64,000 nt of DNA from an uncultured Candidatus Saccharibacteria bacterium (GCA_964402535.1 CAYOCH010000001.1:8286-72285), one strand, 5' to 3'; positions 12,367 through 56,742 are shown, counted from the stretch's first letter. The notes: a model not told the origin generated them from the letters alone. Numbers and translations: made by a program.

Positions 12367-12680
12367 GGATATGGGAACTCCTGCCCGTGGCGGGACAGGT
12401 ACGGCTTGACTATACCATAACGAGTACTACAATTGAATTGAGCTTAGGCTCGGTTTTATTAGCTTAGTCCGGCCAATATGGCAGTACTCTTGCTAGAAAA
12501 ATTGAGCCCTGTTCTTCCAGCTGCATTTTGACTATCTGCATCGAATCCCTGAACAAGGTTCTTCCGATCCAGATCTAATTCCCGAGTCAATGACAACTTG
12601 CAGTTAGAATTAAGTTACGTCTTGTCATGACGTGACCGAAGTAAGAATCTCGGGTGTTCTTGCAGGACAGTGGGCTCAAT

Positions 12681-12712
12681 GCGAACCGCCTACCGGCGGT
12701 TCGGCGTTTTTA
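12681..12712 (+). terminator. Intrinsic terminator-like hairpin (CGAACCGCC-TACC-GGCGGTTCG) plus T5, plus-strand polarity
   Basis: Perfect 9-bp stem followed by GCGTTTTTA on the plus strand, yet no annotated plus-strand gene upstream. Confidence 0.5.
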
Positions 12713-13513
12713 TCATATTTGCATCGAGTCTTGAACTTCGTAAGTCTCTGCGGTCAGTATCAGCTCTATAGAACGCGCCCAAAGAAGATATATGTTACTT
12801 AGTGCAGCATTATGATCAAGAGGTGTTGGGAAGAGTGTGTGTATTTGCTGAACTAATCCGGTTCTATTTTCTGCCGAAATCGCGTAATCAATCGAGCCGC
12901 TTGGATTGGGGTCATTCGTTGGATGCTCAATGATATATTTAATAATCTGCAGTATCTTCGACAGATCGTCTTGAAGCGTTTTATCATCCGCCGCGAATGA
13001 AGCCATCTGGGTCTGGAAAACACGAACGGCTTGGACGTCCTGATTTTGAATAGCAGAGGAATACGAACTTCGCATTTGGTTCACATCTTGAAGTTCCTTA
13101 GTTATGTCTGCCCACAGCAGTGTCGCCGTCGCGCTGATTGCTTTATCGCTGTCATTGAGATAGGGCTGCAAACTACTGCTAGCGTTCTGCAAATGTGTCG
13201 CCGATTCATTTAACGCAGTCAGTATCACGACGTCTGACTGCGATTCTCCGAATGTTGCTTGCGCCTCGGAATAGGTTTTAGTTTTCCCATATAGCTCTGA
13301 AAGGGCAACAAGAAAAGAGTATATATAGTCGCTTGAATGCTGAGAATATTTACTATCATCCGTATTTGATGCGACGGAAGCATTAGTGGTATTTGCAGCT
13401 ACACTGTCGCCTGTGATAGGAGGGCTAGCGACGGAATGAATTCCCCATGCGATAGCTACAATCAATACGAGAACGACAACCGGGAAGAGTGTCGACTGTT
13501 CTGACGGCTTCAT
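12713..13513 (-). CDS. Hypothetical secreted/membrane-anchored Ser/Thr/Asn-rich protein (low-GC island)
   Basis: 266 aa, N-terminal TM helix; about 45% GC versus about 65% in flanking genes; no recognisable domain. Confidence 0.5.
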   Translation of the reverse strand: MKPSEQSTLFPVVVLVLIVAIAWGIHSVASPPITGDSVAANTTNASVASNTDDSKYSQHSSDYIYSFLVALSELYGKTKTYSEAQATFGESQSDVVILTALNESATHLQNASSSLQPYLNDSDKAISATATLLWADITKELQDVNQMRSSYSSAIQNQDVQAVRVFQTQMASFAADDKTLQDDLSKILQIIKYIIEHPTNDPNPSGSIDYAISAENRTGLVQQIHTLFPTPLDHNAALSNIYLLWARSIELILTAETYEVQDSMQI

Positions 13514-15592: not shown

Positions 15593-16843
15593 TTAGGCGT
15601 AGTAGGAACGGACAAAGTCTGCCCGATATTGTTCAAATCGTCCATCGATGATCGCCTGCCGCGCGCCAGCGACGAGGTCGAGGATGAAGCCGACGTTGTG
15701 CATCGAGGCGATAGCTGCGCCGAGCATCTCGCCCGAGCGCAGGAGGTGCGCGACATAGGCGCGAGAGAACTGCTCGGTGCCTGTTACAGCGAGCTCTGGG
15801 TCGAGCGGGCCGAAGTCTGTCCTATATTTTTCGTTCGTGAGACGGATGACGCCTTGTTTCGTATAGATCGAGCCGTGCCGGCCGAGCCGCGTCGCTGCGA
15901 CGCAGTCGAAGAGGTCCATGCCGTTCGCGATGCCCTCGAGGATATCGCCCGGCTCACCGATCCCGAGGAAGTGCCGCGGCAGCTCCTCGGGCAGTTCCCC
16001 CACGGCTGCCGAGAGCGCGCTCCGCATATCCTCCTTGCTGAAGGAGCCGCCGATGCCGATGCCGTCGAAGCCGAGTGAGGCGATCTCGCGAGCCGACTCG
16101 GCGCGCAGATCTTCGTGACGGCCGCCCTGCACGATGCCGAAGATCGCCTGCTTCTTGCTCGCGTCGATATTCTGCCGGTGCGCCGTAAGCGACCGCGCCG
16201 CCCAGCGATGTGTGCGTTCCATCGCCTCCTTCTGGTATTCATACGGCTCAGTCGGCGACGTGCATTCGTCGAAGGCGAAGAAGATGTCCGCGCCGAGTGC
16301 GTGCTGGATCTCGATCGTGCGCTCTGGCGTGAAGCGATGCAGCGAGCCGTCCAGGTGCGAGGTGAAGGAGACGCCCTCGTCGTCGATCACCGCGAGCTGG
16401 CCGTGCTGGCTCGCGACGCTCTCGTCGAAGTGCGCGAGCCCATGTCGGGACGTCGTACGTCCTACATCAGATGTAGGACGTACGACGTCCTCCACATTCG
16501 AGATCTTCGAGATCTTACGGCCGAAGGCCGCCCCGAGCGAGAAGACCTGAAAGCCGCCCGAGTCAGTGATCGTCGGCCCGCTCCAACCCATGAACGTGCC
16601 GAGCCCGCCAGCCTCTTGGACGATCTTCTCTCCCGGCTGCAGGTAGAGGTGATAGGTGTTCGCGAGGACGACCTCGGCGCCGAGCGCCTCGAGGGTCGAG
16701 GGCAGGATGCCTTTCACGTTCGCCTTCGTTCCCACCGGCGTGAAGGCGGGCGTGCGGATCGCCCCGTGAGGCGTCGTGAGGATGCCAACACGCGCGCGGC
16801 TCTTCAGCTCGCGTGATTCAATTGAGAATGAGATCGCGCTCAT
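15593..16843 (-). CDS. tgt: Queuine tRNA-ribosyltransferase (tRNA-guanine transglycosylase) with about 43-aa insertion
   Basis: TDSGGFQVFSLG, FDECT and Zn-site CxCxxC-like blocks conserved; 416 aa versus about 375 typical; extra segment after FSLG contains a perfect palindrome. Confidence 0.85.
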   Translation of the reverse strand: MSAISFSIESRELKSRARVGILTTPHGAIRTPAFTPVGTKANVKGILPSTLEALGAEVVLANTYHLYLQPGEKIVQEAGGLGTFMGWSGPTITDSGGFQVFSLGAAFGRKISKISNVEDVVRPTSDVGRTTSRHGLAHFDESVASQHGQLAVIDDEGVSFTSHLDGSLHRFTPERTIEIQHALGADIFFAFDECTSPTEPYEYQKEAMERTHRWAARSLTAHRQNIDASKKQAIFGIVQGGRHEDLRAESAREIASLGFDGIGIGGSFSKEDMRSALSAAVGELPEELPRHFLGIGEPGDILEGIANGMDLFDCVAATRLGRHGSIYTKQGVIRLTNEKYRTDFGPLDPELAVTGTEQFSRAYVAHLLRSGEMLGAAIASMHNVGFILDLVAGARQAIIDGRFEQYRADFVRSYYA

Positions 16844-20094: not shown

Positions 20095-22899
20095 TTATCG
20101 CGAGAGGTAGCGCTCCCGAATCATGTTCTCTACCGTAGCACGGTCGCGGCCGTAGGTGAGGGAGGAGAGCTGGATAAGGTCGTTCACCTGCTCGTGATTC
20201 AGTGCCGGCAGATCGGGCGTGCGCAGGTCGAAGGGCTGCTGCGGTACGCCCTGCGAGAGGATCTTCATGTATGCATTGCGGTTCTCGATATTCACGAAGT
20301 CGAGGGCGACGAAGACGGGCGCGAACTGCTTGGCGAAGAACTCGGCATCCTCCTCCCCGACGCGGAAGACCGCCATGTTCCCCACGTTGCCGAAGACTGC
20401 GTCGCGCGTCTTCTCCTCGATCTGGCTCAAGAATTGGTGCGCGACCGTCAAGGAGAGCTTGTACTTGCGCGCCTCCGAAAGGATGCCCGGGATCGAGTCG
20501 GTCGTCACGTTCTGGAACTCGTCGATATACAGATAGAACGGCGGATACGCCGCGCGCGGATTGTCAGCGCGCGAGAGCGCGGCCATGAAGAGCTTGCCGA
20601 CGATGATGAGGCCGAGGAGGTTCGCGTTCTTCTCGCCCAAGCGCCCCTTCGAGAGGTTGATGAGCAGGATCTTCTTGGTATCCATCACCTCGCGGAATTT
20701 GAAAGAGGACTCCTGCTGCCCCACGATCGGGCGGATGAAGTCGTTCGCCGTGAAGTCGTCGAACTTGTTCGTGATATAGGGCACGATATTCTCCAAGGCC
20801 GCGTCACCGCCGGCCTTCGTCGCGATGTCTGTCCAGAACTGGTTCACGATCGGGTTGAGGCTCTTCGCGAGCTTCATGCGGCGGTACTCGCTGTTCGAGA
20901 GCACGCGCGCTATGTCGAGGATCGTCGAGCCGCTCGAAGGATCCTCCATCACGAGCTGCGTCGCATTACGGAAGTATTGCTCGAACGCGGGACCCATCGA
21001 CTCGGGCACGTCGCCATAGAGCCGCTTGAAGATCATCAGGAGCTCGTTGACGATGAACGTCTTCTGCTCCGGCCGCGAAAGATCGTATTCGAGGAAGTTG
21101 AGCGAGAAGGGGCGCGAGAGATCTGCCGGATCGAAGTAGATCACGTCCTTGTAGCGCTCGGGCGGGATCGCCGCGAGGATGTCGAGGATATCGGTGCCAT
21201 GCGGGTCGATAAAGCAGCAGCCCTCGCCCGCATTGATGTCCTGAATGATCATCGACTTCATCAGCCCGGTTTTGCCCGTGCCCGTCTGGCCGATCACATA
21301 GAGGTGCCGCAGGCGATCCTCGCTCGTGAGATAGATCGGCGTTTCTTGTCCGCGGTAGGAGTTGATGCCGAGAAGCGCGCCTGATTGAGGGAGGTTCATG
21401 GGTGCCGCGGCGTGCGTAAATCGCGCCTGCTTCAGGTGCGGCGAGCTCGCGATACCCGCTGGCGGGAAGTGATAGAGCGTCGTGAGCTCGCGCAGCGATA
21501 AGGGAAGCGCCTCTGCCGCAGGGACGCGGAATGAGAAGTCCTCGAACAACGCTTGCGCGCTTCGGCCTTCGATGCGTTTGAAGTCGAGCCGGTTCCCTTG
21601 CGTGTTACCGAACTGGTTGAATCCGGCCTCGAGCTCGCTCAAGACCTGCCCGGCCTTGCGCTCATCGGCAGAGGACGCGACAAGCCGGATCGTCGCGCCG
21701 ACGATCGGCGTCGCGATCTTCTTCTCGACCTCTTGGATGTAACTCTTGTTCGCTTCGGCTTGGCGCGTCTCGGCCTCCTTCGCCTTCTCGACATCCTTGG
21801 GCTTGCTCGAAAAGAGCCGCTTGCTGAAGTCGCGTGCAAGCTCGCCAAACGCCGTCTCGGGCGTGGTGAAGGCGGCTTGGCGCTTCTCCCCTTTTCGCAG
21901 CGCCTGGAGGATCTTGCTGTAGTGGCGCACGTGCCGATCGCCGCGCGGCTCGATGATGAGCTGTATCGCGGCACCCTCGCCCTTGTGCTCGATCTTGGCG
22001 AACGCGTTCGTGATCGCGTTAATCGGGTCGTAGTCGAACTCCGGGTACTCCTTCAAGGGGAGCGCTGGATTCTCGGCCAAGGTCGCGACCGACGCGAGCG
22101 AGGCACCCTTGGGAGCGAAGATGTTGTAGTCCAAGGGCTGCGGGACCAGGTGTGCGTCCGGGAAGATCGCGAGGAGCTGCTTCTCGAAGAGCGCTGCCTT
22201 GCCGTTCGGCACTGCCGCATAGAACTGGAGCTCGGGCGAGTTCGCCGGCACAGCGAGCTCGAGCGCGAAGTAGGGCGGCTCGTCGCCCTGTGCATCGCCG
22301 ACCGAGAGCAACCCGGCATAGAACTGCTCCATGCCGGAGATGAGCTCCTTCAAGGTCTTCTGTCGCGCGCCCTGCTCTTGCACCTTCGGCGCGGGTAGCG
22401 CGATCTCGTAGAGCGTCATCTTGAGCGCGCGGAATCGGGGCGCCTTCTCGTCGGCCCCGGGCACCACGAGGCCGGCGGCGATGTAGCGCACCAGGTAGCG
22501 GTGGAAGTCGTCTGCGACCTCGGGGTCGCCCATCTTCTCGACGATCGCGAGCGCATTCTTGATCCCATGCTCCTGCATCGCCTGTTGCAGGCTCGCGATC
22601 ACGCGCTCGTCGTCGCCAAGGGCGAGATCAGAGAGGATAGCCTCGGCCTCGCTCTTCTTGGTCTTCTCGCTGATGCGATACTCGCGGGCGAGCACCTTAT
22701 CGGGCGCGTCGGCATGCTCCTTGACCTGCTCCGAGATGATGCGCACGTGCTCGAACGCGCTTGGCGACTTGCCCCTGCCCGCCAGCTCCGCCTCTTTCTT
22801 GGCCACTTGCTCGCGCAGGTAGGCCAATTCCGCTTCAGGCGTGGACAACGTCGGTGCCGATTCCATGTGATATCTAGTATACTGCACGCGAATGCTCAA
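20095..22899 (-). CDS. FtsK/HerA/TraD-VirD4-like P-loop ATPase (type IV secretion/conjugation coupling-protein-like)
   Basis: 934 aa; Walker A VIGQTGTGKTGLMK, Walker B YLYIDEFQNV, downstream TVAHQ motif; N-terminal about 450 aa lacks TM helices. Confidence 0.6.
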   Translation of the reverse strand: MSIRVQYTRYHMESAPTLSTPEAELAYLREQVAKKEAELAGRGKSPSAFEHVRIISEQVKEHADAPDKVLAREYRISEKTKKSEAEAILSDLALGDDERVIASLQQAMQEHGIKNALAIVEKMGDPEVADDFHRYLVRYIAAGLVVPGADEKAPRFRALKMTLYEIALPAPKVQEQGARQKTLKELISGMEQFYAGLLSVGDAQGDEPPYFALELAVPANSPELQFYAAVPNGKAALFEKQLLAIFPDAHLVPQPLDYNIFAPKGASLASVATLAENPALPLKEYPEFDYDPINAITNAFAKIEHKGEGAAIQLIIEPRGDRHVRHYSKILQALRKGEKRQAAFTTPETAFGELARDFSKRLFSSKPKDVEKAKEAETRQAEANKSYIQEVEKKIATPIVGATIRLVASSADERKAGQVLSELEAGFNQFGNTQGNRLDFKRIEGRSAQALFEDFSFRVPAAEALPLSLRELTTLYHFPPAGIASSPHLKQARFTHAAAPMNLPQSGALLGINSYRGQETPIYLTSEDRLRHLYVIGQTGTGKTGLMKSMIIQDINAGEGCCFIDPHGTDILDILAAIPPERYKDVIYFDPADLSRPFSLNFLEYDLSRPEQKTFIVNELLMIFKRLYGDVPESMGPAFEQYFRNATQLVMEDPSSGSTILDIARVLSNSEYRRMKLAKSLNPIVNQFWTDIATKAGGDAALENIVPYITNKFDDFTANDFIRPIVGQQESSFKFREVMDTKKILLINLSKGRLGEKNANLLGLIIVGKLFMAALSRADNPRAAYPPFYLYIDEFQNVTTDSIPGILSEARKYKLSLTVAHQFLSQIEEKTRDAVFGNVGNMAVFRVGEEDAEFFAKQFAPVFVALDFVNIENRNAYMKILSQGVPQQPFDLRTPDLPALNHEQVNDLIQLSSLTYGRDRATVENMIRERYLSR

Positions 22900-22936
22900 C
22901 TTCCTCTCCGCCTGTATAAATCTTGATCCGATCGAG

Positions 22937-23509
22937 ATGGTGAAGACCGGCAGCTACGTCGGCATCGCCGTGCTGGTCTTCGCCGAGAGCGGACTCCTCT
23001 TCGGCATCTTCCTCCCCGGCGACTCGCTCCTCTTTGCGGCCGGGCTCCTCGCGGCGGGCGGCGTGCTCTCGATCCAACCGCTCATCATCTTCGTCGTCAT
23101 CGCTGCGATCATCGGCGACTCGGTGGGCTATTGGTTCGGCGCAAACGTCGGCGTCAGCTTCTTCAAGCGCAAGGACTCCTTCTTCTTCAAGCAGGAATAC
23201 TTGAAGCGCACTGAGCGCTTCTACGAGACCTACGGCGGGCGTGCCGTCGTGCTCGCCCGCTTCATCCCGATTGTGCGTACGATCGCCCCGATCCTCGCCG
23301 GCGTCGGCTCGATGACCTATCGCCAATTCATCACCTACAACATCATCGGCGGCACGCTCTGGGGCGCCGGCATGCTCGCGCTCGGCTTCTCTCTCGGCTC
23401 CGTCCTCCCGAACGCCGAGTCCTATGTCCTCCCGCTCTCGCTCGTGATCATCGTCCTCTCATTCCTCCCTATCCTCCTCAACCTCCTACGCGGCAAAAAG
23501 GCAGTCTAG
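22937..23509 (+). CDS. DedA/VTT-domain family membrane protein
   Basis: YVGIAVLVFAESGLLFGIFLPGDSLL and FIPIVRTIAPILAGVG motifs typical of DedA; start trimmed to MVKTGS. Confidence 0.8.
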   Translation: MVKTGSYVGIAVLVFAESGLLFGIFLPGDSLLFAAGLLAAGGVLSIQPLIIFVVIAAIIGDSVGYWFGANVGVSFFKRKDSFFFKQEYLKRTERFYETYGGRAVVLARFIPIVRTIAPILAGVGSMTYRQFITYNIIGGTLWGAGMLALGFSLGSVLPNAESYVLPLSLVIIVLSFLPILLNLLRGKKAV

Positions 23510-32441: not shown

Positions 32442-32536
32442 ATGCTGGGGGACTTGGAATCGGACCAAGATTGAGAGCTTCAAAGGCTCCTGTCCTACCA
32501 TTAGACGATCCCCCAATGAGCGCACTCTATCACTTT

Positions 32537-33337
32537 TTAGCTGCCGCACACGGCAGCGAGAGACGAGAGGTCGGACGCCGTCGGCTTCAGGTTGCCGCTC
32601 TCGTTCTGCGCATACATGATCGCCTTCGGGTCGCCGTTGTGGCCGAGGCCGATCGCATGGCCGAACTCGTGGGCCAGGACGCGCACGAGCTGCGTGCTGC
32701 CGATGAACTCGAAGATATCGATCCGCTCGCCTGCGGCATCGCGCACGAACTCGCCCTCCTCGAACGGGCGACCGGCCAGCTGATTGTACTGCTCTACGAG
32801 TGCGTTCAACGCGGCCACGCTCGCGTTAAAGGTCGCGACGCCGGCGTTGATCGAGTCCGCGAGCGCGTTCAGCGCGTCGCGCTCTCCGTTCAAGGTCTTG
32901 AGCTCCTCGGGCGTCGCGCCGCCGCGCGCGTTCACCTCGGCCACCGCCTGGTTATAGGCGTCCTGCTGCGCGACGAACTGCTCGTGCAGGGCGTCGAGAG
33001 AGGCGCGGGCTGCGTCAGCGTCGGCCTGCTTCTGCGCGATCTGCGCGCCGAGCTTGGCGTTCGCCTCGCGCTCGTCGTAGATGAGGTTCACCTTCAGGGC
33101 CGCGTTCGGGTCATAGGTGAGGAGCGGCTTCCCTCCGGCCTTGTTCCAGATCGCAGCGGCCGTCTCGAGGTCGCTCACGAGCTCTGCGCGCGTGATACCG
33201 AAGCGCGAATCGACCTGCCCCACCGCATACGGGATCGGCCGCGTGCACGGGATGTGCTGCTGATAGTAATAATAGAGACCCGCCGCCGTCGCAAGCGCGA
33301 CGATAAAGACGACGATCCAATTGAGTGCGTCTCTCAT
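32537..33337 (-). CDS. Zinc metalloprotease, metzincin-like (HEFGHAIGLGH)
   Basis: HExxHxxGxxH motif plus downstream Met-turn (AIMYAQ); N-terminal TM anchor; coiled-coil middle. Confidence 0.7.
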   Translation of the reverse strand: MRDALNWIVVFIVALATAAGLYYYYQQHIPCTRPIPYAVGQVDSRFGITRAELVSDLETAAAIWNKAGGKPLLTYDPNAALKVNLIYDEREANAKLGAQIAQKQADADAARASLDALHEQFVAQQDAYNQAVAEVNARGGATPEELKTLNGERDALNALADSINAGVATFNASVAALNALVEQYNQLAGRPFEEGEFVRDAAGERIDIFEFIGSTQLVRVLAHEFGHAIGLGHNGDPKAIMYAQNESGNLKPTASDLSSLAAVCGS

Positions 33338-34398
33338 TCGGCAGAGCCGAGCTCGAGGACAGCGAGCTCGAGAGGGAGCGCCGGGATCGGCGCGAAGCGG
33401 ATCCGATCAGCTGCGGTGAGGAATGCGAGCATCGTGTCGTGCGTGATGCCCTTCTCTCTTGCATACGCCTCGAGCGATGCGAACTCGTCTGCACCGTACT
33501 CTTGTGCGAGCTCGCTCCGGAGCTCGGGTGCATAGCGCACGAGGAGCGTGGCCCGCAGCGTCTCGAGTATGAGCTCGAGGAAGAGCCGCATGTCGACCCC
33601 GGCCTTGGCCGCCTTCTCGATCGCCTCGAGCGCCTTGCCGCGTTCGCCTGCCGCGAGCGCGCCGATGAGCGCGTTAACTTGCTCTCTCTTAGGCGCTCCC
33701 GTATGAGCCTCGACCCACACTCTAGAAATCTCTCCTGGCCTTTCTTCTTTTGCGGCTACCGTCTCCTTTATCCATTTCTCACCCGCAATGACCTTCTGCA
33801 ATGTTGATAACGCATCGCGATAAGAACCGTCACCAATCATGGCTATCAAATCCGCTGCGTCAGGCGCCAACTTGTATCCCTCCATCTTCGCTACGCGCGT
33901 TACTACTTGTGCGAGCACCGCGCGGGTCGGCTTCTTAAACTCGAAGACCTGGCAGCGCGACTGCACGGTCTCGGGCACCTTCTCTAATTCTGTCGTCGCG
34001 AGGATAAAGACTGCGTGAGGGGGCGGCTCTTCAAGCGTCTTCAAGAACGCGTTCCACGCGCTCTTCGAGAGCATGTGCACCTCGTCGAGGATGTAGACCT
34101 TATAGGGCGAGGCGAACGGCAGCGTATAGACGCCCTCGGAGAGTGCGCGGATGTCCTCGACGCTGTTGTTCGAAGCCGCGTCGACCTCGTAGAGGTCGCG
34201 CTCGTCGCAGCCGATTGCGCTCGCAAGGATGCGCGCGACCGAGGTCTTGCCGAGCCCGCGCGTGCCAGCAAAGAGGTATGCGTGGCCGAACTTCTTCGCC
34301 TTGACCGCCTCCTCGAGGGGCTTCGTCACCTGCTCTTGGCCGACCACTTCGGCGAACGCCTGCGGCCGATAGATCCGATAGAGCGACTGGTGCGCCAT
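33334..34398 (-). CDS. dnaX: DNA polymerase III subunit gamma/tau, short form
   Basis: AAA+ clamp-loader motifs (GTRGLGKTS, DEVHML, SRC); 354 aa. Confidence 0.9.
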   Translation of the reverse strand: MAHQSLYRIYRPQAFAEVVGQEQVTKPLEEAVKAKKFGHAYLFAGTRGLGKTSVARILASAIGCDERDLYEVDAASNNSVEDIRALSEGVYTLPFASPYKVYILDEVHMLSKSAWNAFLKTLEEPPPHAVFILATTELEKVPETVQSRCQVFEFKKPTRAVLAQVVTRVAKMEGYKLAPDAADLIAMIGDGSYRDALSTLQKVIAGEKWIKETVAAKEERPGEISRVWVEAHTGAPKREQVNALIGALAAGERGKALEAIEKAAKAGVDMRLFLELILETLRATLLVRYAPELRSELAQEYGADEFASLEAYAREKGITHDTMLAFLTAADRIRFAPIPALPLELAVLELGSAE

Positions 34399-34415
34399 AG
34401 TCGCTAGAGTATATC

Positions 34416-34472
34416 AAAAAGAAAAAGCCCCGGGACAGCTCCACTCGATGAGGTCGATGGAGCGCCCGGGGC
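34416..34472 (-). terminator. Intrinsic terminator (GCCCCGGG...CCCGGGGC long hairpin plus UUUUUCUUUUUG) 17 nt upstream of the dnaX start
   Basis: Minus strand: 45-nt GC-rich hairpin followed by U5CU5. Confidence 0.65.
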
Positions 34473-34567
34473 CAAGGGAGATTACAAGTGAAGAAGACTT
34501 ACCACTACTGCTCCCTCCCACGAGGGAGCAGGCTAAGGATCAGGAAAGCGATAACCTTCACCAAAGC
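34473..34567 (-). ncRNA. Candidate small structured RNA (about 150 nt including terminator) upstream of dnaX
   Basis: Bracketed by a consensus promoter and the intrinsic terminator; contains perfect hairpin GCUCCCUC-GUGG-GAGGGAGC enclosed by a GUGAAG/CUUCAC helix; no ORF. Confidence 0.45.
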
Positions 34568-34573
34568 CTCACT

Positions 34574-34602
34574 ATTCTAGCGCACCCCTATAATCTTGTC
34601 AA
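34574..34602 (-). promoter_or_regulatory. Sigma-70-type promoter TTGACA-17 bp-TAGAAT (minus strand)
   Basis: Plus-strand TGTCAA at 34597-34602 and ATTCTA at 34574-34579 give a perfect -35 and near-consensus -10 with 17-bp spacer. Confidence 0.65.
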
Positions 34603-34630
34603 ACCCCCAAAATATGCCGGAATTACTGGC

Positions 34631-35641
34631 TTATGCGTGACCAGACGCTGTCACCACCTGCTCGAGCTCGGCGGCGGAATTGGCGGCCATGAGCTTGGCG
34701 CGGAGGTCGGCGGCGCCGTCAAAGCCGGTGACGAATGCCTTGATGTGCTTCTTGAGTATCGAAAAGTTCTTCGGCGGCGCGAGCTTCTCAAATCCGTGCG
34801 CGAGTTCGACGAGCGCCATCAGCTTCTCTTGCAGTCCATGTTCGGGTTTCGTAAATCCATCATGCATGATGGATTTACGAAACCCATCATTGCCGCGCTC
34901 CGCAAATACCCACGGATTGCCAAACATGCCGCGGCCGATCATGACGCCGTCACAACCGGTCTCTGCGGCGAGCCGCTCCCCTTCTGCGATGCTCTGCACA
35001 TCGCCATTCCCTATGAGGAGCACATCGGGCGCGATCCGGTCGCGGAGCTCTTTAGCCTTCTTCATCCGCTCCCAATCGGCGGGGACGAGCGAGAGCTCCT
35101 TGCGCGTGCGCAGGTGGAGCGTGAGCGCCGCCGGTCGTGCCGAGAGGATCGGCGTGAGCCACTCTAGAAGCGTCTCTTTGTTATAGCCGATGCGCGTCTT
35201 CACCGAGACCGGCAGCCCTGCAGACTTCGCCGCCTCGATGAGTTCGACCGCTAAGGTCGGCGACTTGATGAGCGCTGCGCCGGCACCCTGCTTCTCGATG
35301 CTCCTATCCGGGCAGCCCATGTTGAGGTCGACGCCGTCGAAGCCAAGCTCGGCCACGACCTTGGCGCCATACGCGATCATCTCGGGTTTCGCCGAGAAGA
35401 TCTGTGCGACGATCGGATGCTCAGCGCTCGTGAACCGCAGATCGCGCATAAGCGGATTCTCTGCGTCCGGCATCTTAGCGATCTCGCGGGTGTGAAGGAG
35501 CCCGTCGGCCGAGACGAACTCGGTCCACGTGACGTCCGGCTTGCCATGCTTCGCAACGAGCGCGCGGAAGGCAGCGTCGGTGACATCCGCCATCGGCGCC
35601 ATCGCGAAGAACGGTCGCGAGAGCTTATTCCAGAATGACAT
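34631..35641 (-). CDS. dus: tRNA-dihydrouridine synthase
   Basis: TIM-barrel Dus motifs (APMADVTD, NMGCP, VKTRIG, conserved catalytic Cys); 336 aa. Confidence 0.85.
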   Translation of the reverse strand: MSFWNKLSRPFFAMAPMADVTDAAFRALVAKHGKPDVTWTEFVSADGLLHTREIAKMPDAENPLMRDLRFTSAEHPIVAQIFSAKPEMIAYGAKVVAELGFDGVDLNMGCPDRSIEKQGAGAALIKSPTLAVELIEAAKSAGLPVSVKTRIGYNKETLLEWLTPILSARPAALTLHLRTRKELSLVPADWERMKKAKELRDRIAPDVLLIGNGDVQSIAEGERLAAETGCDGVMIGRGMFGNPWVFAERGNDGFRKSIMHDGFTKPEHGLQEKLMALVELAHGFEKLAPPKNFSILKKHIKAFVTGFDGAADLRAKLMAANSAAELEQVVTASGHA

Positions 35642-35667
35642 GCAGACACCCTAGCAGACTTCGCCGC

Positions 35668-36534
35668 TTACCGCTTTGTGCCGTCCGACTTTCGCTTCAC
35701 GTAGACTTTACCGTCGAAGCGCAGGTCGACGTAGACGAGCGAGCCGTCGCCAAGGTTCATGCTGCCCTTGCCCGAGGTGAGCGCGGTAAACGCCGCTTGC
35801 TCGTGACCGAGCACATAGGTCACGCGGGTACCACTCGCGAGATAGTCGTCGATCTCGTCGCCGCGGAGCGCGACCCTGGTCACCTCCGTGCCGAAGGTCG
35901 CGAGCTGCCGCGCGAAGTCGAACGTGCTCGGCAGCTCGTCTGCGCGCGCGATAGTCGCTCGGAGAGGTTCAAGCACATCGCCAATCAGGGGCGCGTAGAC
36001 CGCGAACGGGTTGATCGTCTCGGTCGTCGTCGCAGCAGGTGCGAAGACGAATCCGTTCGCGTCAAAAACATAGCAGTTCTCGACTCCCGATGGCTTGGAG
36101 CTTGCCCCGTTGGAAATCAGATTTTCAACGGGGCACCAGCGTGCGACCGCGACGCGGTCGTTCACCTTGATCGAGAGGCCCGTGAGCCCGTTGTGGAATA
36201 TCGAAATGGAGGCGATCTCCGGATGCGCCGCCATGATGTTCGCGCGGATCTGCCCGTCCGGATAGAAGAACATCGAGTCGCGCGGCACGAGCCCCAGATA
36301 GCTGCCCTGCATCGCCGAGGTCGCAACGTCTGAGAGCGACTGGTCAGCGCCGTAGATCGTGACCTCGCTGATGCGCACGGCGCTCTGGTTCAAGCCGTAG
36401 AGCAGCCCCGCGAGCGCGAGGATTGCGAGAACGACAAACGTGATCAAGACGCGGCGTCGGCGCTGTCGGCGGCGTTCTGCAAGCCGCGCGCTACCGTGCG
36501 GTACCGAGGACAGTCTTGCCGACATACGGCACAA
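35668..36534 (-). CDS. FtsQ/DivIB-like POTRA-domain protein
   Basis: Arg-rich cytoplasmic N-terminus, single TM, then VRISEVTIYGADQSLSDVATSA POTRA-like segment. Confidence 0.45.
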   Translation of the reverse strand: MCRMSARLSSVPHGSARLAERRRQRRRRVLITFVVLAILALAGLLYGLNQSAVRISEVTIYGADQSLSDVATSAMQGSYLGLVPRDSMFFYPDGQIRANIMAAHPEIASISIFHNGLTGLSIKVNDRVAVARWCPVENLISNGASSKPSGVENCYVFDANGFVFAPAATTTETINPFAVYAPLIGDVLEPLRATIARADELPSTFDFARQLATFGTEVTRVALRGDEIDDYLASGTRVTYVLGHEQAAFTALTSGKGSMNLGDGSLVYVDLRFDGKVYVKRKSDGTKR

Positions 36535-37759
36535 GCACCTCGGGCACCTTGATCGTGCCGTCGGCTTGCTGGTAGTTCTCGATGATAGAGACGAGGATGC
36601 GCGGCGTCGGGATCGCGGTCGAGTTCAAGGAGTGCGCGAAGCGCATATTCCCCTCTGCATCGCGGTAGCGGATATTGAGGCGCCGCGTCTGGAAGTCGTG
36701 GAAGTAGGAGGCCGAGCTGATTTCGCGGTACTTCTGCTCTGCCGGGACCCAGAGCTCGACATCATATTTCTTCACCTGACCGAGGCCGAGGTCGCCGCCG
36801 CAGTTCGCGACCGTGTGATACGGGATATTCAAAAGCTCGATGAACTCCTCGGTGTTGCGGTTGATCTGCTCGTGCATGCGCACGGTCTCGTCGTGCTCGG
36901 CCTTGCAGAGCACGACCTGCTCCCATTTGAAGAACTCGTGCACGCGGATGAGGCCCCGGACGTCCTTGCCGTGCGCGCCCGCCTCACGACGGAAGCAGGG
37001 TGAGAACGCGAGGAACCGGATCGGGAACTGCGCCTCCTCGACCGTCTCGTTCATGTAGTAGCCCATCGTCGCGACCTCGCCGGTGCCGGCCAGATAGTCG
37101 CCGTCTTGCGTCTTGTAGAGATCTTCTTCGCCCTGCGGGAGATAGCCCGTGCCCATGAACGGTTCGCGCCGCACGAGACTCGGCACGCTCATGAGCGTCA
37201 TGCCCTTGCCGCCGAAATGCTTCAACGCGAGCTGCCACACCGCGTTCGCGAGGAGCACACCGTCATTCTTCAAGAAGTAGCCGCGGAATCCGGCGACCTT
37301 CGCACCGCGCTCGAAGTCCGCCATATCGTTCGCGACCATGAGCTCGACATGGTCCTTAGGCGTGAACGAAAACTCGGTGGGCGTACCCCACTTCTTCACC
37401 TCGAGATTATCAGCGTCGCTCTCGCCGTCCGGCACCGACATGTCAGGGACGTTCGGCACCGTGAGCATCAGCTGCTGCCACTCGTTCATGACGCCCTTCA
37501 GCCGCTCCTCTGCCTCAGTCATGCCGTTCTTGAGCTCGCGCATTTGCGCGAGGAGCTTCTCGCGATCCTCGCCCTTGGCGATCTGGATCTCGTTGCTGCG
37601 GCGGTTCTGCTCTGCGCGCTTGGTGTCGAGCTCGAGGCGGATCGCCTTGCGCTCGTCGTCGACCTTGATAAGACGGTCGATGTCGACCTCGATATGCTTC
37701 TTAGCGGCGCCTGCTTTGATAATGTCCGCATTCTCGCGGATAAAGTGAATATCGAGCAT
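36491..37759 (-). CDS. serS: Seryl-tRNA synthetase
   Basis: 422 aa; N-terminal coiled-coil arm plus class II motifs 1-3. Confidence 0.95.
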   Translation of the reverse strand: MLDIHFIRENADIIKAGAAKKHIEVDIDRLIKVDDERKAIRLELDTKRAEQNRRSNEIQIAKGEDREKLLAQMRELKNGMTEAEERLKGVMNEWQQLMLTVPNVPDMSVPDGESDADNLEVKKWGTPTEFSFTPKDHVELMVANDMADFERGAKVAGFRGYFLKNDGVLLANAVWQLALKHFGGKGMTLMSVPSLVRREPFMGTGYLPQGEEDLYKTQDGDYLAGTGEVATMGYYMNETVEEAQFPIRFLAFSPCFRREAGAHGKDVRGLIRVHEFFKWEQVVLCKAEHDETVRMHEQINRNTEEFIELLNIPYHTVANCGGDLGLGQVKKYDVELWVPAEQKYREISSASYFHDFQTRRLNIRYRDAEGNMRFAHSLNSTAIPTPRILVSIIENYQQADGTIKVPEVLVPYVGKTVLGTAR

Positions 37760-41899: not shown

Positions 41900-43492
41900 A
41901 TGACGACCGTCAAGGAGATCATCGCCGCGATGGCGGCGCCGTCGCCAGAGGACGTCGCCTTCGTCGAGAAGGCGTACGACTACGCCAAGAAGGCGCATGA
42001 GGGCCAGACCCGCTACTCGGGCGATCCGTATTTCATTCACCCGGCCGCCACCGCCAAGATTCTCGCCGAGTACGGCATGGACGCGACGACGATCGCCGCC
42101 GGCCTCCTGCACGACGCCGTCGAGGACGGCCGCGTCTCGCGGGAGGAGATCGAGAAAGAGTTCGGCAAGGAGCTGATGTTCATCGTCGACGGCGTGACCA
42201 AGCTCGGCACGCACAAGTACCGCGGCGCCGAGCGCCACGCAGAGTCGCTCCGGCGGCTCCTGGTCGCGACCGCGAGCGACATCCGCGTCCTGATCGTGAA
42301 GCTCGCCGACCGCAAGCACAACATGCAGACGCTCGAGTTCGTGCCCGAGCACAAGCGCCGGCGCATCGCGCTCGAGACGCTCGAGATCTATGCGCCGATC
42401 GCCGACCGGCTCGGTATGGGCAAGATGAAGAACAACCTCGAGGATCTCGCCTTCCCCTATGTCGACCCCGATGCCGCCAAGCACGCCGCCGAGGTGCGCA
42501 AGCTCGAGACGCAGGAGACCGAGGACGGTCTTGCCGCCGTGCAGAAGGAGCTCAAGAAAGAGCTCGGCAAGAAAGGGACGACCTTCCGCACTGAGATCCG
42601 GATGAAAGGCCTGTGGAGCCTGCACCAGAAGCTCTCGCGCAAGAACGATGACATCAGCCTGATCCACGACATCGCGGCGCTTCGCATCATCGTCCCCTCG
42701 ATCGAAGACTGCTACACGACGCTCGGGATCGTGCATGCGCTCTACAAGCCGCTGCCGGGCGAGTTTAAGGACTATATCGCCTTCCCGAAGCCGAACGGCT
42801 ACCAGTCGCTCCACACCACCGTCGTGACGCCGGTCGCCGGCATCGTCGAGATCCAGATCCGCACCGAGGAGATGCACAAGGTCGCGCAGTTCGGCATCGC
42901 CTCGCACATGACCTACAAGCAGCTCGGCAAGGGCGTCGAGAAGCTCGGCAAGGAGGTGCAGAAAAGCCGCTTCTCTGCGATCTCGTTCTCGTGGATCCGC
43001 TCGCTCATCCCCTCGCTCATGCGGGTGTCGAAGAGCGACGCTGGCGCGCACGGCGTCGCCAAGGTGCCGCCCTGGCTCGCCGAGCTCGCCGAGGCGCACA
43101 CCGACGTCGCTGGCTCGAAGGAGTTCGTCGAAGGGCTCAAGGAGGACTTCTTCTCGCACCGCGTGTTCGTCTTCACGCCGCAGGGCGACGTGATCGACCT
43201 GCCCTCACAATCGACGCCGATCGATTTCGCCTATGCGATCCACAGCGACCTCGGCGACCATCTGCAGGGCGCGAAGGTCAACGGCAAGCTCGTCTCCTTT
43301 GATACGCAGCTCGGCAACGGCGAGGTCGTCGAGATCATCCGCCGCGACTCAGCGCACCCCTCGCCCAAGTGGCTCGATATCGCGCGCACCTCGCTTGCGC
43401 GCCGGCATATCCGCGCGGCACTCGGCCTGTCAGACGTGAACCCGCGCCCTGGACGCCGTCAGCGCCGATTCTGGAAGAAGCACAGCGCTTAG
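41900..43492 (+). CDS. Bifunctional (p)ppGpp synthetase/hydrolase, RelA/SpoT family
   Basis: HD domain (HPAATAKILAE...HDAVED), synthetase domain (RMKGLWSLHQK...YQSLHTTV), TGS domain. Confidence 0.9.
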   Translation: MTTVKEIIAAMAAPSPEDVAFVEKAYDYAKKAHEGQTRYSGDPYFIHPAATAKILAEYGMDATTIAAGLLHDAVEDGRVSREEIEKEFGKELMFIVDGVTKLGTHKYRGAERHAESLRRLLVATASDIRVLIVKLADRKHNMQTLEFVPEHKRRRIALETLEIYAPIADRLGMGKMKNNLEDLAFPYVDPDAAKHAAEVRKLETQETEDGLAAVQKELKKELGKKGTTFRTEIRMKGLWSLHQKLSRKNDDISLIHDIAALRIIVPSIEDCYTTLGIVHALYKPLPGEFKDYIAFPKPNGYQSLHTTVVTPVAGIVEIQIRTEEMHKVAQFGIASHMTYKQLGKGVEKLGKEVQKSRFSAISFSWIRSLIPSLMRVSKSDAGAHGVAKVPPWLAELAEAHTDVAGSKEFVEGLKEDFFSHRVFVFTPQGDVIDLPSQSTPIDFAYAIHSDLGDHLQGAKVNGKLVSFDTQLGNGEVVEIIRRDSAHPSPKWLDIARTSLARRHIRAALGLSDVNPRPGRRQRRFWKKHSA

Positions 43493-44448
43493 ACTGAAAA
43501 ATTGGAGACTGAGTAGAGCTCGTCGTCTTCAGACGGCTCCTCGGGCGCGGCCGCCGGGACTGGATCTGGGAGCGCAGCGTTCTCCCGCGCGGCAGCCTCC
43601 TCAGCCTTCTGCTGCGCGGCGAGTGCGTCGGCCAAGACCTGCAGATCCTCTGGAGAGAAGAAGTCGATCATGAGCCGACCGCCTTCTGCGTTCGTCTCGA
43701 TGATGACGCGCGTGCCGAGCGACTCGGTGAGCGCCTTCTCGAGCTCGAGCATCTCTGGCGTCTTGCGGTGGTGCTTGTGGACGCGCTCCTGTGCGATCGA
43801 GCGCGCGATGCGCTCGGCCTGCCGCACTGGCAGCTTCTTCAAGATGATCTCCTTGAAAAGCGTCTCGCGCTCCTCAGGCTTGTCATTGAGCGCCATCAGC
43901 GGGCGCGCATGCCCCTCGGTGATCTCCTTGTTCACGATCGCCATCTGAATGTGATCAGGCAGCGAGAGGAGACGGACAGAATTCGAGACGTACTCGCGGC
44001 TCTTACCGATCTTGGCCGCGGTCTCGGCGTGCGAGATGCCGAACTCGTCGATGAGCTTCTGCAGCGCCTTGGCGCGATCGATCGCGTTCAAGTCTTCGCG
44101 CTGGAGGTTCTCGATGATCGCGAGCTCGAGCTTGGTGAGATTGCTCTCGCCGTGGCGGATCACGACCGGGAGCTGCTTCAGCCCCGCGAGTTTCGACGCG
44201 CGCAAGCGTCGCTCGCCGGCGATAAGCTCGTAGACGCTCTCGAGACCGCCGTCCGGCTTCTCTACTTCGGTGCGGCTCACGACCAAGGGCTGCAGCACGC
44301 CGTATTGGCGGATGCTCTCGGCGAGCGAGGTCAGCCCCGCCTCGCTGAACTCCTTGCGCGGCTGGTACGGATTCGGGACGATACGGTCGGTATCGATCCA
44401 GAAGACCGAGTCGTACTTGGTCGGGATATAGCCCGCATCATCCTTCAT
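43489..44448 (-). CDS. parB: Chromosome partitioning protein ParB/Spo0J
   Basis: ParB box (LQPLVV...YELIAGERRLRASKLAG) and HTH. Confidence 0.85.
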   Translation of the reverse strand: MKDDAGYIPTKYDSVFWIDTDRIVPNPYQPRKEFSEAGLTSLAESIRQYGVLQPLVVSRTEVEKPDGGLESVYELIAGERRLRASKLAGLKQLPVVIRHGESNLTKLELAIIENLQREDLNAIDRAKALQKLIDEFGISHAETAAKIGKSREYVSNSVRLLSLPDHIQMAIVNKEITEGHARPLMALNDKPEERETLFKEIILKKLPVRQAERIARSIAQERVHKHHRKTPEMLELEKALTESLGTRVIIETNAEGGRLMIDFFSPEDLQVLADALAAQQKAEEAAARENAALPDPVPAAAPEEPSEDDELYSVSNFSV

Positions 44449-51901: not shown

Positions 51902-53026
51902 CTACCCGCGACTACTGCTGTCAATGAACGCGACCGACGCGGCGAGCGCACTCGCGAACCGCCCGAGATCCCGCTCTGAAACGCGCGGACCCCACGAGAT
52001 CCGAAGCGTCGATTTCGAGCGTTCTGCGTCTCCGGTGAGGGCAAAGATCGCGCGCGAACCCTCTTGCGAATCCGTCTCACAGGCGCTCCGCGTCGAGATA
52101 GCGAATCCGGCTTCATCGAGGAGCGCCACCAGGTAGTCTGTATCGCGACCGGGTAACGAAACATTAAGGACGTTCGGCGCCTGCGCTTTGCCCTCGTTGA
52201 TATATACGTTCGAAACATCGCGCATGATTCGTCCGACGAGCTCCGAGCGCGCCGCCGCTGCGACAGCGCGAAACGTCTCGCGATTGTTCGCGGCAGTGTG
52301 CAGTGCCGTCGCAAATCGCGCTGCAAGCTCGGGCGACTCGCTGCCAGAGCGCAAGCCGCGCTCTTGGCCGCCGCCTGCATATATAGGCACGAGCGGGATC
52401 GTGCGGTGCGCGATCACGGCGCCGATCCCGCGCGCGTCGCCGACCTTCGAGCCATCGAAGACGAGCAGGTCGGCGGCAAAATGAGCGCGGGTGACCTTCT
52501 CCGTCAAGGGCGCCTGTGAGGCGTCGACGTGCAGCAGTACCTTCCCTATCGCCTGTTTCACCTCGCGCGTATTCCAGATCACACCCGTCTCGCCGCAGAC
52601 GGCGTCCATCGAGACGAGAACCGTCTCGGGGCGGATCATCTTCTTGAGTGCGGCGACATCAATGCGCGCATCCTTGATCGGCAACGGCTCCACTGCGACG
52701 CCCTCTGCCGCAAGCAGTTTCGCGTTCTCGACGATCGAGGCATGCGCGCTCGGCAGATAGAGCACGTGCAGGTTGTTGCGGCCGGGCGCATCAGCGTCTG
52801 CACTCTGCCGCAACGCTCGCACATGCCCGAGCATCGCGAGCGCGTTGCCCTCGGTCGCGCCGCTCGTGAAGAGGACGTCGTCGCTCTGCACCTCGGCGAG
52901 CCGCGCGATCGCCGTCCGCGCCTCTTCGAGCACACGCTTCGCCTCCCGCCCCTCCGTATGCGGCGAGGACGGGTTCCCGGTCGCGCCGGCAGCGGCGTCG
53001 AGATAGACCCTGGAGCGCGAGAACAT
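51902..53026 (-). CDS. Cysteine desulfurase-family class V aminotransferase
   Basis: PLP-lysine region and conserved Cys loop near the C-terminus (STRSACETD). Confidence 0.8.
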   Translation of the reverse strand: MFSRSRVYLDAAAGATGNPSSPHTEGREAKRVLEEARTAIARLAEVQSDDVLFTSGATEGNALAMLGHVRALRQSADADAPGRNNLHVLYLPSAHASIVENAKLLAAEGVAVEPLPIKDARIDVAALKKMIRPETVLVSMDAVCGETGVIWNTREVKQAIGKVLLHVDASQAPLTEKVTRAHFAADLLVFDGSKVGDARGIGAVIAHRTIPLVPIYAGGGQERGLRSGSESPELAARFATALHTAANNRETFRAVAAAARSELVGRIMRDVSNVYINEGKAQAPNVLNVSLPGRDTDYLVALLDEAGFAISTRSACETDSQEGSRAIFALTGDAERSKSTLRISWGPRVSERDLGRFASALAASVAFIDSSSRG

Positions 53027-56670: not shown

Positions 56671-56742
56671 CCGAATTGGTACAGGCGCATGGCTTAGGAC
56701 CATGTCTCGCAAGAGGTGAGGGTTCGAGTCCCTCCTCGCCCA
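56661..56742 (+). tRNA. tRNA-Leu(TAG)
   Basis: Type II tRNA: acceptor GGGCGAG/CTCGCCC, anticodon loop CTTAGGA, long variable arm, T-loop TTCGAGT. Confidence 0.75.

What the first reader, a model, noticed from the sequence alone, without database searches (positions are those of the whole stretch)
34400..34605. Stand-alone promoter to structured RNA to terminator unit immediately upstream of dnaX: candidate small ncRNA in the ffs position
On the minus strand there is a near-consensus sigma-70 promoter, TTGACA-17-TAGAAT. It is followed by about 95 nt with no ORF that contains a perfect GCUCCCUC-GUGG-GAGGGAGC hairpin enclosed by a GUGAAG/CUUCAC helix. Next comes a strong intrinsic terminator (45-nt GC hairpin plus U5CU5) that ends only 17 nt before the dnaX ATG. 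dnaX itself then appears to start from a TATACT box inside or after the terminator as a leaderless or near-leaderless mRNA. In many bacteria the SRP RNA gene (ffs) occupies exactly this position upstream of dnaX. I could not recognise the SRP domain-IV internal loops here, so this may instead be a different sRNA or a regulatory leader.
Basis: partly seen in the sequence, partly recalled or inferred. Interest (0 to 1): 0.6.

Follow-up and report, generated by a model that had tools for sequence, protein, structure and literature searches.

The report
Orphan small RNA gene before dnaX
Between the dus and dnaX genes of an uncultured Patescibacteria (Paceibacteria/Kaiserbacteria-like) genome sits a promoter, structured RNA and terminator that looks like a real, roughly 150-nt small RNA gene; it is not the SRP RNA, matches no known RNA family and is found in no sampled relative.

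Summary
The promoter TTGACA-17-TAGAAT matches 11 of 12 positions; the window holds 2 such sites against 0.075 expected. A roughly 100-nt rod-like fold follows, capped by a perfect 10-bp hairpin. Then comes the strongest terminator-like site in the window (-32.7 kcal/mol, U5CU5), which ends 17 nt before the dnaX ATG.

The ffs/SRP RNA reading is not supported. Rfam gives no SRP, 6S or other hit even at E<=10. No domain-IV motif is present. The RNA has no sequence or structure homolog in 160 dnaX loci from other genomes and metagenomes. In most relatives dus abuts dnaX with a 7-30 nt gap.

dnaX has its own extended -10 promoter (TGATATACT) 9 nt before the ATG. 113 of 121 distinct relatives show the same leaderless layout, and it is common across this genome, so it is ordinary for the clade.

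The best reading is a species-restricted, independently transcribed small RNA that shares its terminator with the dus operon. It probably acts in trans, but that step is inferred. No covariation or expression data are available. A few relatives carry analogous but non-homologous units at the same site.

The parts
34574..34602 (-). Sigma-70-type promoter of the small RNA: -35 TTGACA (34602-34597), 17-nt spacer, -10 TAGAAT (34579-34574). It begins 29 nt after the dus stop codon.
   Evidence: 11/12 match, 2 such sites observed in the window against 0.075 expected.
34474..34569 (-). 5' rod-like domain of the predicted RNA, with the transcription start inferred at about 34567-34569. It consists of nested helices, a 15-nt CU-rich internal loop (UUUCCUGAUCCUUAGC) and a CU-rich 3' linker (UUGUAAUCUCCCUU).
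   Evidence: MFE -36.7 kcal/mol for the domain, z = -2.9.
34508..34531 (-). Apical perfect 10-bp hairpin CUGCUCCCUC-GUGG-GAGGGAGCAG.
   Evidence: -20.3 kcal/mol.
34505..34561 (-). 18-codon GUG ORF (MKVIAFLILSLLPRGREQ*) inside the RNA. It is probably not translated. Its GAGG lies at or before the inferred 5' end, and both GAGG and the GUG are base-paired in the fold.
   Evidence: Read; pairing. No counterpart in the analogous units of relatives.
34416..34473 (-). Intrinsic terminator: 47-nt GC-rich hairpin (34473-34427) plus U5CU5 (34426-34416). It also serves as the only terminator available to the upstream serS-orf-dus transcript.
   Evidence: -32.7 kcal/mol, the strongest such site in the window. 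No other hairpin plus T-run lies between the dus stop (34631) and this site.
34408..34416 (-). dnaX promoter with an extended -10, TGATATACT. It sits 9 nt upstream of the ATG, which gives a leaderless or <=3-nt-leader mRNA.
   Evidence:: 113 of 121 relatives have a TATACT/TATAAT box ending 6-11 nt before the ATG, 53 of them with the TG extension.
33334..34398 (-). dnaX, a short gamma/tau clamp-loader subunit of 354 aa.
34631..35641 (-). dus (tRNA dihydrouridine synthase), the upstream neighbour. Its transcript has no terminator of its own before the RNA unit.

Best explanation
This is a stand-alone, species-restricted small non-coding RNA gene of about 150 nt.

A near-consensus sigma-70 promoter 29 nt after the dus stop codon starts transcription at about 34567-34569. 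The RNA folds into a roughly 100-nt rod capped by a perfect 10-bp hairpin. It ends at a very strong, apparently constitutive intrinsic terminator at about 34418. Read-through transcripts of the serS-orf-dus operon end at the same terminator. This is the layout of a 3'-UTR-embedded sRNA with its own promoter (DapZ/MicL type).

dnaX is not part of this transcript. It is transcribed from its own extended -10 promoter, which sits between the U-tract and the ATG, as a leaderless mRNA. That arrangement is the norm for dnaX in this clade and is common in this genome.

What is shown: the promoter, fold and terminator signals; the absence of any known-family signature; the absence of homologs; and the separate dnaX promoter.

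What is inferred: that the RNA accumulates, and that it acts in trans. The most likely route is base pairing through its two CU-rich single-stranded stretches (UUUCCUGAUCCUUAGC and AAUCUCCCUU) with purine-rich, SD-like mRNA segments.
For: - Promoter: 11/12 match, 2 sites observed against 0.075 expected in the window. The other 11/12 site drives a real gene, so this promoter consensus looks functional in the genome.
- Fold: z = -3.95.
- Terminator: -32.7 kcal/mol plus U5CU5, the top terminator-like site in the window.
- Constitutive termination: forcing the only plausible antiterminator pairing costs about 27 kcal/mol (-44.9 against -71.5).
- Not a leaderless mRNA: no ATG lies 6-11 nt after the -10 box, whereas that pattern is what many genes here show.
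- Separate dnaX promoter: dnaX keeps its own -10 box in 113 of 121 relatives, including those with analogous upstream RNA units.
- Inserted unit: the dus-dnaX spacer is 7-30 nt in many relatives and 232 nt here.
- Recurrence: analogous promoter, ORF-less RNA and terminator units occur at the same site in L011, L083 and L116, and in more distant Paceibacteria.
- No known family.
Against: - There is no expression evidence. The only other occurrences are identical contigs from DNA metagenomes.
- There is no homolog, so no covariation or conservation test is possible.
- Target prediction inside the window is no better than for shuffled seeds, and there is no special complementarity to the dnaX 5' end.
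- The CU-rich 'seed' idea is inference only.
- Part of the linker (CUCC) is paired with the 5' GAGG in the MFE fold.
- A short ORF is present inside the RNA.
Confidence: 0.5

Rival explanations
1. The unit has no dedicated RNA function. The spacer is simply the 3' UTR and terminator of the dus operon. The promoter is a young or neutral transcription start (a 'proto-sRNA' or pervasive transcription), or it matters only through local effects on the adjacent dnaX promoter.
For: - The RNA is confined to one species-level lineage with no homolog in 160 dnaX loci from other genomes and metagenomes.
- The dus-dnaX spacer is a variable insertion hot spot filled with unrelated small genes and units in different relatives.
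- No targets were found.
- dus has no other terminator.
Against: An 11/12 consensus promoter is very unlikely by chance in a 232-nt spacer of a 62% GC genome. A roughly 100-nt rod with a perfect 10-bp hairpin lies between promoter and terminator and folds better than shuffles. Many relatives do without any dus terminator (7-nt gap), so a terminator alone does not explain the insertion.
Confidence: 0.25
2. The unit is a cis-regulatory leader or attenuator of dnaX. Transcription from the upstream promoter is conditionally terminated or read through into dnaX.
For: - The terminator lies 17 nt before dnaX.
- The apical hairpin and the inner terminator stem share arm sequences (GCUCCNUC...GA(N)GGAGC), so alternative pairings are formally possible.
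- An 18-codon ORF spans the first hairpin, which recalls leader-peptide attenuators.
Against: - The best antiterminator is about 27 kcal/mol worse than the terminated fold.
- dnaX has its own conserved extended -10 promoter downstream of the terminator and no SD sequence, so a read-through mRNA would have an internal, SD-less AUG.
- The leader is absent from nearly all relatives.
- There is no riboswitch or leader hit in Rfam.
Confidence: 0.08
3. The unit is an mRNA for a very small hydrophobic protein (18 aa, MKVIAFLILSLLPRGREQ), possibly a type I toxin-like peptide whose ribosome-binding site is locked by 5'-3' pairing.
For: - A GUG ORF at 34561-34505 has GAGG 5 nt upstream.
- Both GAGG and the GUG are sequestered, by the CUCC of the 3' linker and by the CUUCAC strand respectively. 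This resembles locked toxin mRNAs.
- The peptide core is hydrophobic.
Against: - The ORF length is what chance gives: the probability of 18 stop-free codons is about 0.4 (own calculation).
- The GAGG sits at or before the inferred transcription start.
- There is no antisense promoter on the + strand.
- The analogous units show no equivalent ORF.
- The hydrophobic run is only about 10 residues.
Confidence: 0.08
4. The unit is a remnant of a decayed accessory gene, such as the small proteins found between dus and dnaX in relatives. Its promoter and terminator survive.
For: About 19 relatives share a related insert in the dus-dnaX spacer, and in several of them it is a small protein gene with its own terminator.
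Against: - There is no sequence similarity between the window spacer and any of those spacers (blastn clusters).
- Their terminators (GGCCGACTGG...CCAGTCGGCC) differ from this one.
Confidence: 0.06
5. The unit is a highly divergent SRP RNA (ffs) kept in the classical position upstream of dnaX.
For: - The positional analogy with the ffs-dnaX arrangement of Firmicutes and Actinobacteria (established knowledge, not tested here).
- A rod-like hairpin shape.
- No canonical SRP RNA in the 64-kb window.
Against: - No SRP-clan hit even at E<=10.
- The apex is a perfect 10-bp stem with a GUGG loop. There is no GNAR tetraloop, and neither the symmetric nor the asymmetric internal loop is present.
- No CAGG-N3-GNAR-N3-AGCAG motif occurs in the window or in 163 loci.
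- The RNA is not conserved in relatives, most of which have dus abutting dnaX.
Confidence: 0.03

Closest known systems
Type I 3'-UTR-embedded sRNAs with their own promoter (for example DapZ and MicL of enterobacteria)
   Same: - The promoter lies at or just after the end of the upstream coding sequence. Here it starts 29 nt after the dus stop. In the analogous unit L116 the -10 box overlaps the dus stop.
- The RNA shares the Rho-independent terminator with the upstream mRNA.
- The transcript is short, structured and ORF-poor.
   Different: There is no sequence or family relationship. Dependence on Hfq is unknown, and there is no conserved seed. The organism is a Patescibacterium in which many mRNAs are leaderless, so the usual 5'-UTR/RBS targets are fewer.
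Bacterial SRP RNA (4.5S/ffs; Rfam RF00169, RF01854)
   Same: It lies immediately upstream of dnaX, where ffs sits in many Firmicutes and Actinobacteria. It has a rod-like hairpin of similar length.
   Different: It lacks every defining domain-IV feature and any covariance-model score. It is not conserved even among close relatives.
C/U-rich-motif base-pairing sRNAs of Gram-positive bacteria (for example RsaE/RoxS and the 3' domain of RNAIII)
   Same: It has unpaired CU-rich stretches that could pair with purine-rich SD regions. It is a stand-alone promoter and terminator unit.
   Different: There is no homology. The motifs here are UCC/CUCCC rather than the conserved CCCC loops. No target evidence was found.
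Analogous dus-dnaX spacer units in relatives (L011/L116 pair, L083)
   Same: - They occupy the same site.
- They follow the same order: TTGACA-type promoter, RNA of about 50-100 nt, then a GGCCYYGG...CCRRGGCC terminator with a U4-5CU4-5 tract, then a TGnTATACT dnaX promoter.
   Different: They are not alignable to the window RNA by nhmmer, blastn or covariance model. Only L011 and L116 are detectably homologous to each other.

Membership tests
Bacterial SRP RNA (Rfam clan CL00003: RF00169 small, RF01854 large) | Covariance-model score at or above the gathering threshold | tested here: not met
   No SRP hit in the window at gathering, and none even at E<=10 in 34300-34720 on both strands.
Bacterial SRP RNA (Rfam clan CL00003: RF00169 small, RF01854 large) | Domain IV: a GNAR tetraloop on a short stem, flanked by the conserved symmetric (AGG/AGCA) and asymmetric internal loops that bind the Ffh M domain | tested here: not met
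   The apex is a perfect 10-bp stem with a GUGG loop. The pattern CAGG-N3-GNAR-N3-AGCAG has zero matches in the window and 163 loci. No match to a looser pattern falls in this spacer.
Bacterial SRP RNA (Rfam clan CL00003: RF00169 small, RF01854 large) | Universal conservation in related genomes (essential RNA) | tested here: not met
   No nhmmer, blastn or covariance-model homolog in 160 dnaX loci from other genomes and metagenomes. dus abuts dnaX in many relatives. Only dnaX neighbourhoods were searched, not whole genomes.
Bacterial SRP RNA (Rfam clan CL00003: RF00169 small, RF01854 large) | Binding to Ffh / function in co-translational targeting | not testable with these tools
   Needs biochemistry.
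6S RNA (RF00013 and related models) | Covariance-model match; a closed rod of about 180 nt with a central open-promoter-like bubble | tested here: not met
   No hit at E<=10. The fold is a 100-nt rod plus a separate terminator, with no central bubble bounded by long closing stems.
Independent Rho-independent-terminated bacterial sRNA gene (generic kind) | Own promoter | tested here: met
   TTGACA-17-TAGAAT, 11/12, 2 observed against 0.075 expected per window. This is a sequence prediction only.
Independent Rho-independent-terminated bacterial sRNA gene (generic kind) | Intrinsic terminator defining a short transcript | tested here: met
   47-nt hairpin at -32.7 kcal/mol plus U5CU5, the strongest such site in the window.
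Independent Rho-independent-terminated bacterial sRNA gene (generic kind) | No translated ORF | tested here: inconclusive
   Only ORFs of 18, 23 and 35 codons exist, without good signals or conservation. Translation cannot be excluded in silico.
Independent Rho-independent-terminated bacterial sRNA gene (generic kind) | Detectable discrete transcript | not testable with these tools
   The only other occurrences are DNA metagenome contigs from a copper-mine tailings dam.
Independent Rho-independent-terminated bacterial sRNA gene (generic kind) | Structure supported by covariation | tested here: inconclusive
   No non-identical homolog exists in the data searched, so no covariation can be counted.
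Transcription attenuator / riboswitch leader of dnaX | Mutually exclusive terminator and antiterminator of comparable stability | tested here: not met
   The enforced antiterminator fold is -44.9 kcal/mol against an MFE of -71.5.
Transcription attenuator / riboswitch leader of dnaX | The regulated gene depends on the leader's promoter | tested here: not met
   A conserved extended -10 promoter lies between the terminator and the ATG.
Type I toxin-antitoxin locus | Small hydrophobic toxin ORF plus an overlapping or adjacent antisense RNA with its own promoter | tested here: not met
   An 18-aa partly hydrophobic ORF exists, but there is no promoter-like site on the opposite strand in 33000-36000 and no PADLOC or Pfam-testable protein.

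The most novel reading that the evidence does not exclude
The window RNA is one instance of a recurrent class in Paceibacteria that is conserved in position but not in sequence. In this class a strongly promoted, structured RNA ends at a terminator whose U-tract abuts the leaderless dnaX promoter. Under this reading, selection acts on one of two things. One is the act of transcription and termination next to the extended -10 promoter, for example insulation from read-through of the dus operon or local RNA polymerase delivery. The other is a fast-evolving riboregulator.
Probability: 0.08. Interest if true: 0.6.

Novelty: new member of a known kind. Interest (0 to 1): 0.3.

Why it matters
Regulatory RNAs of Patescibacteria/CPR bacteria appear to be little studied; two literature searches here found nothing specific. 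These organisms have tiny genomes, and some Parcubacteria lack the anti-SD sequence (PMC9297842). In this clade many mRNAs appear leaderless. A bona fide sRNA gene here would be a rare handle on how such cells regulate genes.

The comparative result has practical value. It shows that gene-order analogies such as 'ffs sits before dnaX' do not transfer to this clade. It also shows that the dus-dnaX spacer is a variable site where unrelated small genes and RNA units come and go.

As a single-species orphan without expression or covariation support, the finding remains a modest candidate and not a discovery.

Tried and rejected
1. Rfam at gathering thresholds on the whole window gave only 13 tRNAs.
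2. Rfam at E<=10 on 34300-34720 gave only a terminator-like 14.7-bit match to a Betaproteobacteria toxic sRNA (gathering score 50) and noise.
3. Rfam on 20 relatives' loci at gathering, and on 10 plus 4 loci at E-value thresholds, found no RNA family upstream of dnaX in any of them.
4. blastn and nhmmer of the RNA against 163 fetched loci matched only the identical same-species contigs L081 and L082.
5. A single-sequence covariance model of the 5' domain found no homolog in about 830 kb.
6. Searches for closer relatives found none. The best dnaX homolog among 5.8 billion proteins is 80% identical.
7. A search for repeated or mobile copies found a single copy in the window, nothing in phage records and nothing in viral contigs.
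8. An SRP domain-IV regex gave no hit.
9. The forced antiterminator fold was energetically implausible.
10. Target prediction against 64 start regions in the window, and against the dnaX 5' end, was no better than for shuffled sequence.
11. Similarity to the second orphan RNA in the window was below the shuffled expectation.
12. Literature searches for SRP RNA, leaderless mRNA or ncRNA in CPR found nothing specific, apart from the reduced anti-SD frequency in Parcubacteria.
13. The source runs turned out to be DNA metagenomes, so they give no expression evidence.

Full report
**Context**

The window is about 62% GC. Its dnaX product is a short 354-aa gamma/tau protein. The nearest relatives are 75-80% identical proteins annotated as Patescibacteria, Paceibacterota or Kaiserbacteria. 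Gene order on the minus strand is:
- serS (36491-37759)
- an unknown ORF (35668-36534)
- dus (34631-35641)
- a 232-nt spacer
- dnaX (33334-34398)
- an M10 peptidase-like ORF
- a CYTH-domain ORF
- tRNA (32445-32515)

The only other copies of this exact locus are two identical contigs from copper-mine tailings DNA metagenomes.

**Observation check**

Read on the minus strand, the spacer contains the following.
- Promoter: TTGACA (34602-34597), 17 nt, TAGAAT (34579-34574). It is the only promoter-like site in 3 kb. It is one of two sites at >=11/12 in the whole window, against 0.075 expected. The other such site precedes an SD-led protein gene, so this consensus appears meaningful in the organism.
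- 5' domain: the next roughly 100 nt fold into a rod.
- Terminator: a 47-nt hairpin (34473-34427, -32.7 kcal/mol) followed by U5CU5 (34426-34416). It is the strongest terminator-like site in the window and ends 17 nt before the dnaX ATG.
- Overall fold: the whole stretch folds better than all 200 shuffles, z = -3.95.

Short sense ORFs exist, of 18, 23 and 35 codons. The 18-codon GUG ORF (MKVIAFLILSLLPRGREQ) has a GAGG 5 nt upstream. That GAGG lies at or before the inferred transcription start, and both it and the GUG are paired in the fold.

**Is it SRP RNA?**

No, on four grounds.
- Rfam 15 gives no SRP, 6S or other meaningful hit in the region even at E<=10, and none in the window at gathering thresholds.
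- The apex has none of the domain-IV features: no GNAR tetraloop and neither the symmetric nor the asymmetric loop. A pattern for the universally conserved CAGG-N3-GNAR-N3-AGCAG core is absent from the window and from all 163 fetched loci.
- An essential RNA should be conserved. I fetched 80 species-representative genomes and 80 metagenome contigs encoding dnaX relatives, plus L081-L083. Only the two identical same-species contigs, L081 and L082, match the RNA by blastn or nhmmer. A covariance model of the 5' domain found nothing in the other 161 loci or elsewhere in the window.
- dus lies upstream of dnaX on the same strand in 139 of 163 loci. In many of these the gap is only 7-30 nt, and in several the -10 box overlaps the dus stop codon. 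The 'ffs position' analogy therefore does not hold for this clade.

**dnaX promoter**

Between the U-tract and the ATG lies TGATATACT, an extended -10 element, 9 nt from the ATG.
- Among 121 distinct dnaX upstream regions, 113 carry TATACT or TATAAT ending 6-11 nt before the start codon.
- 53 of those have the TG extension.
- Only 4 have an SD-like motif.
- Within the window, many other genes, including dus and serS, show the same TAnnnT-6-9-ATG signature.

Leaderless initiation is therefore ordinary here. This fits the report that many Parcubacteria lack the anti-SD sequence (PMC9297842).

**Leader or separate gene?**

Three points argue for a separate gene.
- The only plausible antiterminator, the 3' arm of the apical hairpin pairing with the similar 5' arm of the inner terminator stem, yields -44.9 kcal/mol against -71.5 for the terminated fold. 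The terminator therefore looks constitutive.
- dnaX keeps its own promoter downstream of the terminator, both here and in the relatives with analogous units.
- A read-through transcript would carry an internal, SD-less AUG.

dus has no terminator of its own, so the dus operon and the small RNA share one. This is the architecture of 3'-UTR-embedded sRNAs with their own promoter, such as DapZ and MicL (established knowledge; resemblance only).

**Comparative picture**

The dus-dnaX spacer is a variable site.
- About 19 relatives share a related insert, which in several is a small protein gene with its own terminator.
- Others carry a minus-strand membrane-like ORF.
- 13 of 70 distinct spacers >=100 nt contain at least one promoter, ORF-less RNA and terminator unit by simple criteria.
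- Among close relatives these are L011, L083 and L116. All three follow the same order of parts and have similar GGCCYYGG...CCRRGGCC terminators with U4-5CU4-5 tracts.
- More distant Paceibacteria (L058, L063, L065, L069 and others) hold up to four such units in tandem.
- None is recognised by Rfam.
- Only L011 and L116 are homologous to each other. The window RNA is alignable to none.

**Function**

Nothing computed here pins it down.
- Predicted pairing of the two CU-rich single-stranded segments with 64 start regions in the window is no better than for shuffled seeds.
- There is no special complementarity to the dnaX 5' end.
- The unit is single-copy and absent from phage and viral collections.

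I therefore commit to the following reading. This is a genuine, independently transcribed, species-restricted small RNA of about 150 nt that probably acts in trans by base pairing. Confidence is about 0.5 for the gene being real and non-coding. The trans-acting mechanism is inference.

The rivals, with confidences:
- a functionless or very young transcription unit that doubles as the dus terminator (about 0.25)
- a dnaX leader (about 0.08)
- a tiny-peptide mRNA (about 0.08)
- a remnant of a decayed accessory gene (about 0.06)
- a divergent SRP RNA (about 0.03)

**Novelty and score**

It belongs to a known kind, a bacterial sRNA gene with its own promoter and a Rho-independent terminator embedded in a 3' UTR. 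It belongs to no known family. It would be one of very few RNA-regulator candidates in CPR bacteria. It is, however, a single-lineage orphan with no covariation or expression support, and the striking leaderless dnaX feature is the clade norm. Interest is 0.3.

Noticed in passing
window 12406-12716 (+): A second orphan promoter, structured RNA and terminator unit. The promoter is TTGACT-16-TACAAT. The transcript of about 280 nt lies in a low-GC island between uvrA (9679-12366, -) and an unknown ORF (12713-13513, -), next to uvrB. MFE is -100.3 kcal/mol, z = -5.3, with a long 5'/3' closing helix and a terminator GCGAACCGCC-UACC-GGCGGUUCGC plus U5. It has no Rfam match and no similarity to the dnaX-upstream RNA.
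   Followed up: partly
window-wide; for example 7481-8452(-), 15593-16843(-), 22892-23509(+), 34631-35641(-), 36491-37759(-), 43489-44448(-), 51902-53026(-), 60226-60693(-): Many genes have a TAnnnT -10 box ending 6-9 nt before the first ATG and no SD sequence. This suggests widespread leaderless mRNAs in the genome. A minority, such as 56836 and 58005, have clear AGGAG SD sequences.
   Followed up: partly
L001, L007, L085, L110 and others, just upstream of dnaX: In relatives with a 7-nt dus-dnaX gap, the dnaX -10 hexamer TATAAT contains the dus stop codon (…GTATAATCATCCTATGG…). One hexamer serves as both promoter element and stop codon.
   Followed up: no
L058 1924-3000, L063/L065 2343-3000, L069 2128-3000: In more distant Paceibacteria the dus-dnaX spacer holds arrays of two to four consecutive TTGACA-type promoter, structured RNA and terminator units. 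Each RNA is about 150-300 nt, and none is recognised by Rfam.
   Followed up: partly
L011 2858-2977 and L116 1357-1477: Two relatives share a homologous three-hairpin small RNA unit immediately upstream of the dnaX promoter (blastn link at E<1e-4). Fold z-scores are -5.3 and -3.6. With more members this could seed a family.
   Followed up: partly
window 34508-34531 and 34438-34463 (-): The apical hairpin and the inner terminator stem use nearly the same arms (GCUCCNUC … GA(N1-2)GGAGC). This could reflect an internal duplication or a twin binding site. The longer pattern occurs only once in the window, against 0.04 expected.
   Followed up: partly
window 56029-58838 (+): A low-GC region (about 52%) contains a LAGLIDADG-like ORF (56029-56670) that runs into a tRNA (56661-56742). 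It is followed by a consensus promoter and SD-led genes, one with a weak SPFH/Band-7 match. This is possibly an island integrated at the tRNA.
   Followed up: no
window 32445-32515 (-) and relatives: A tRNA gene follows dnaX, sometimes with intervening genes. This was seen in 16 of the first 20 related loci scanned and in L083, L087 and L116, so a dus-dnaX-…-tRNA neighbourhood is conserved.
   Followed up: no
window 34856-34873 (-): Both independent Logan contigs of this species break at the same perfect palindrome TCCATCATGCATGATGGA inside dus. This is probably an assembly artefact at an inverted repeat.
   Followed up: no
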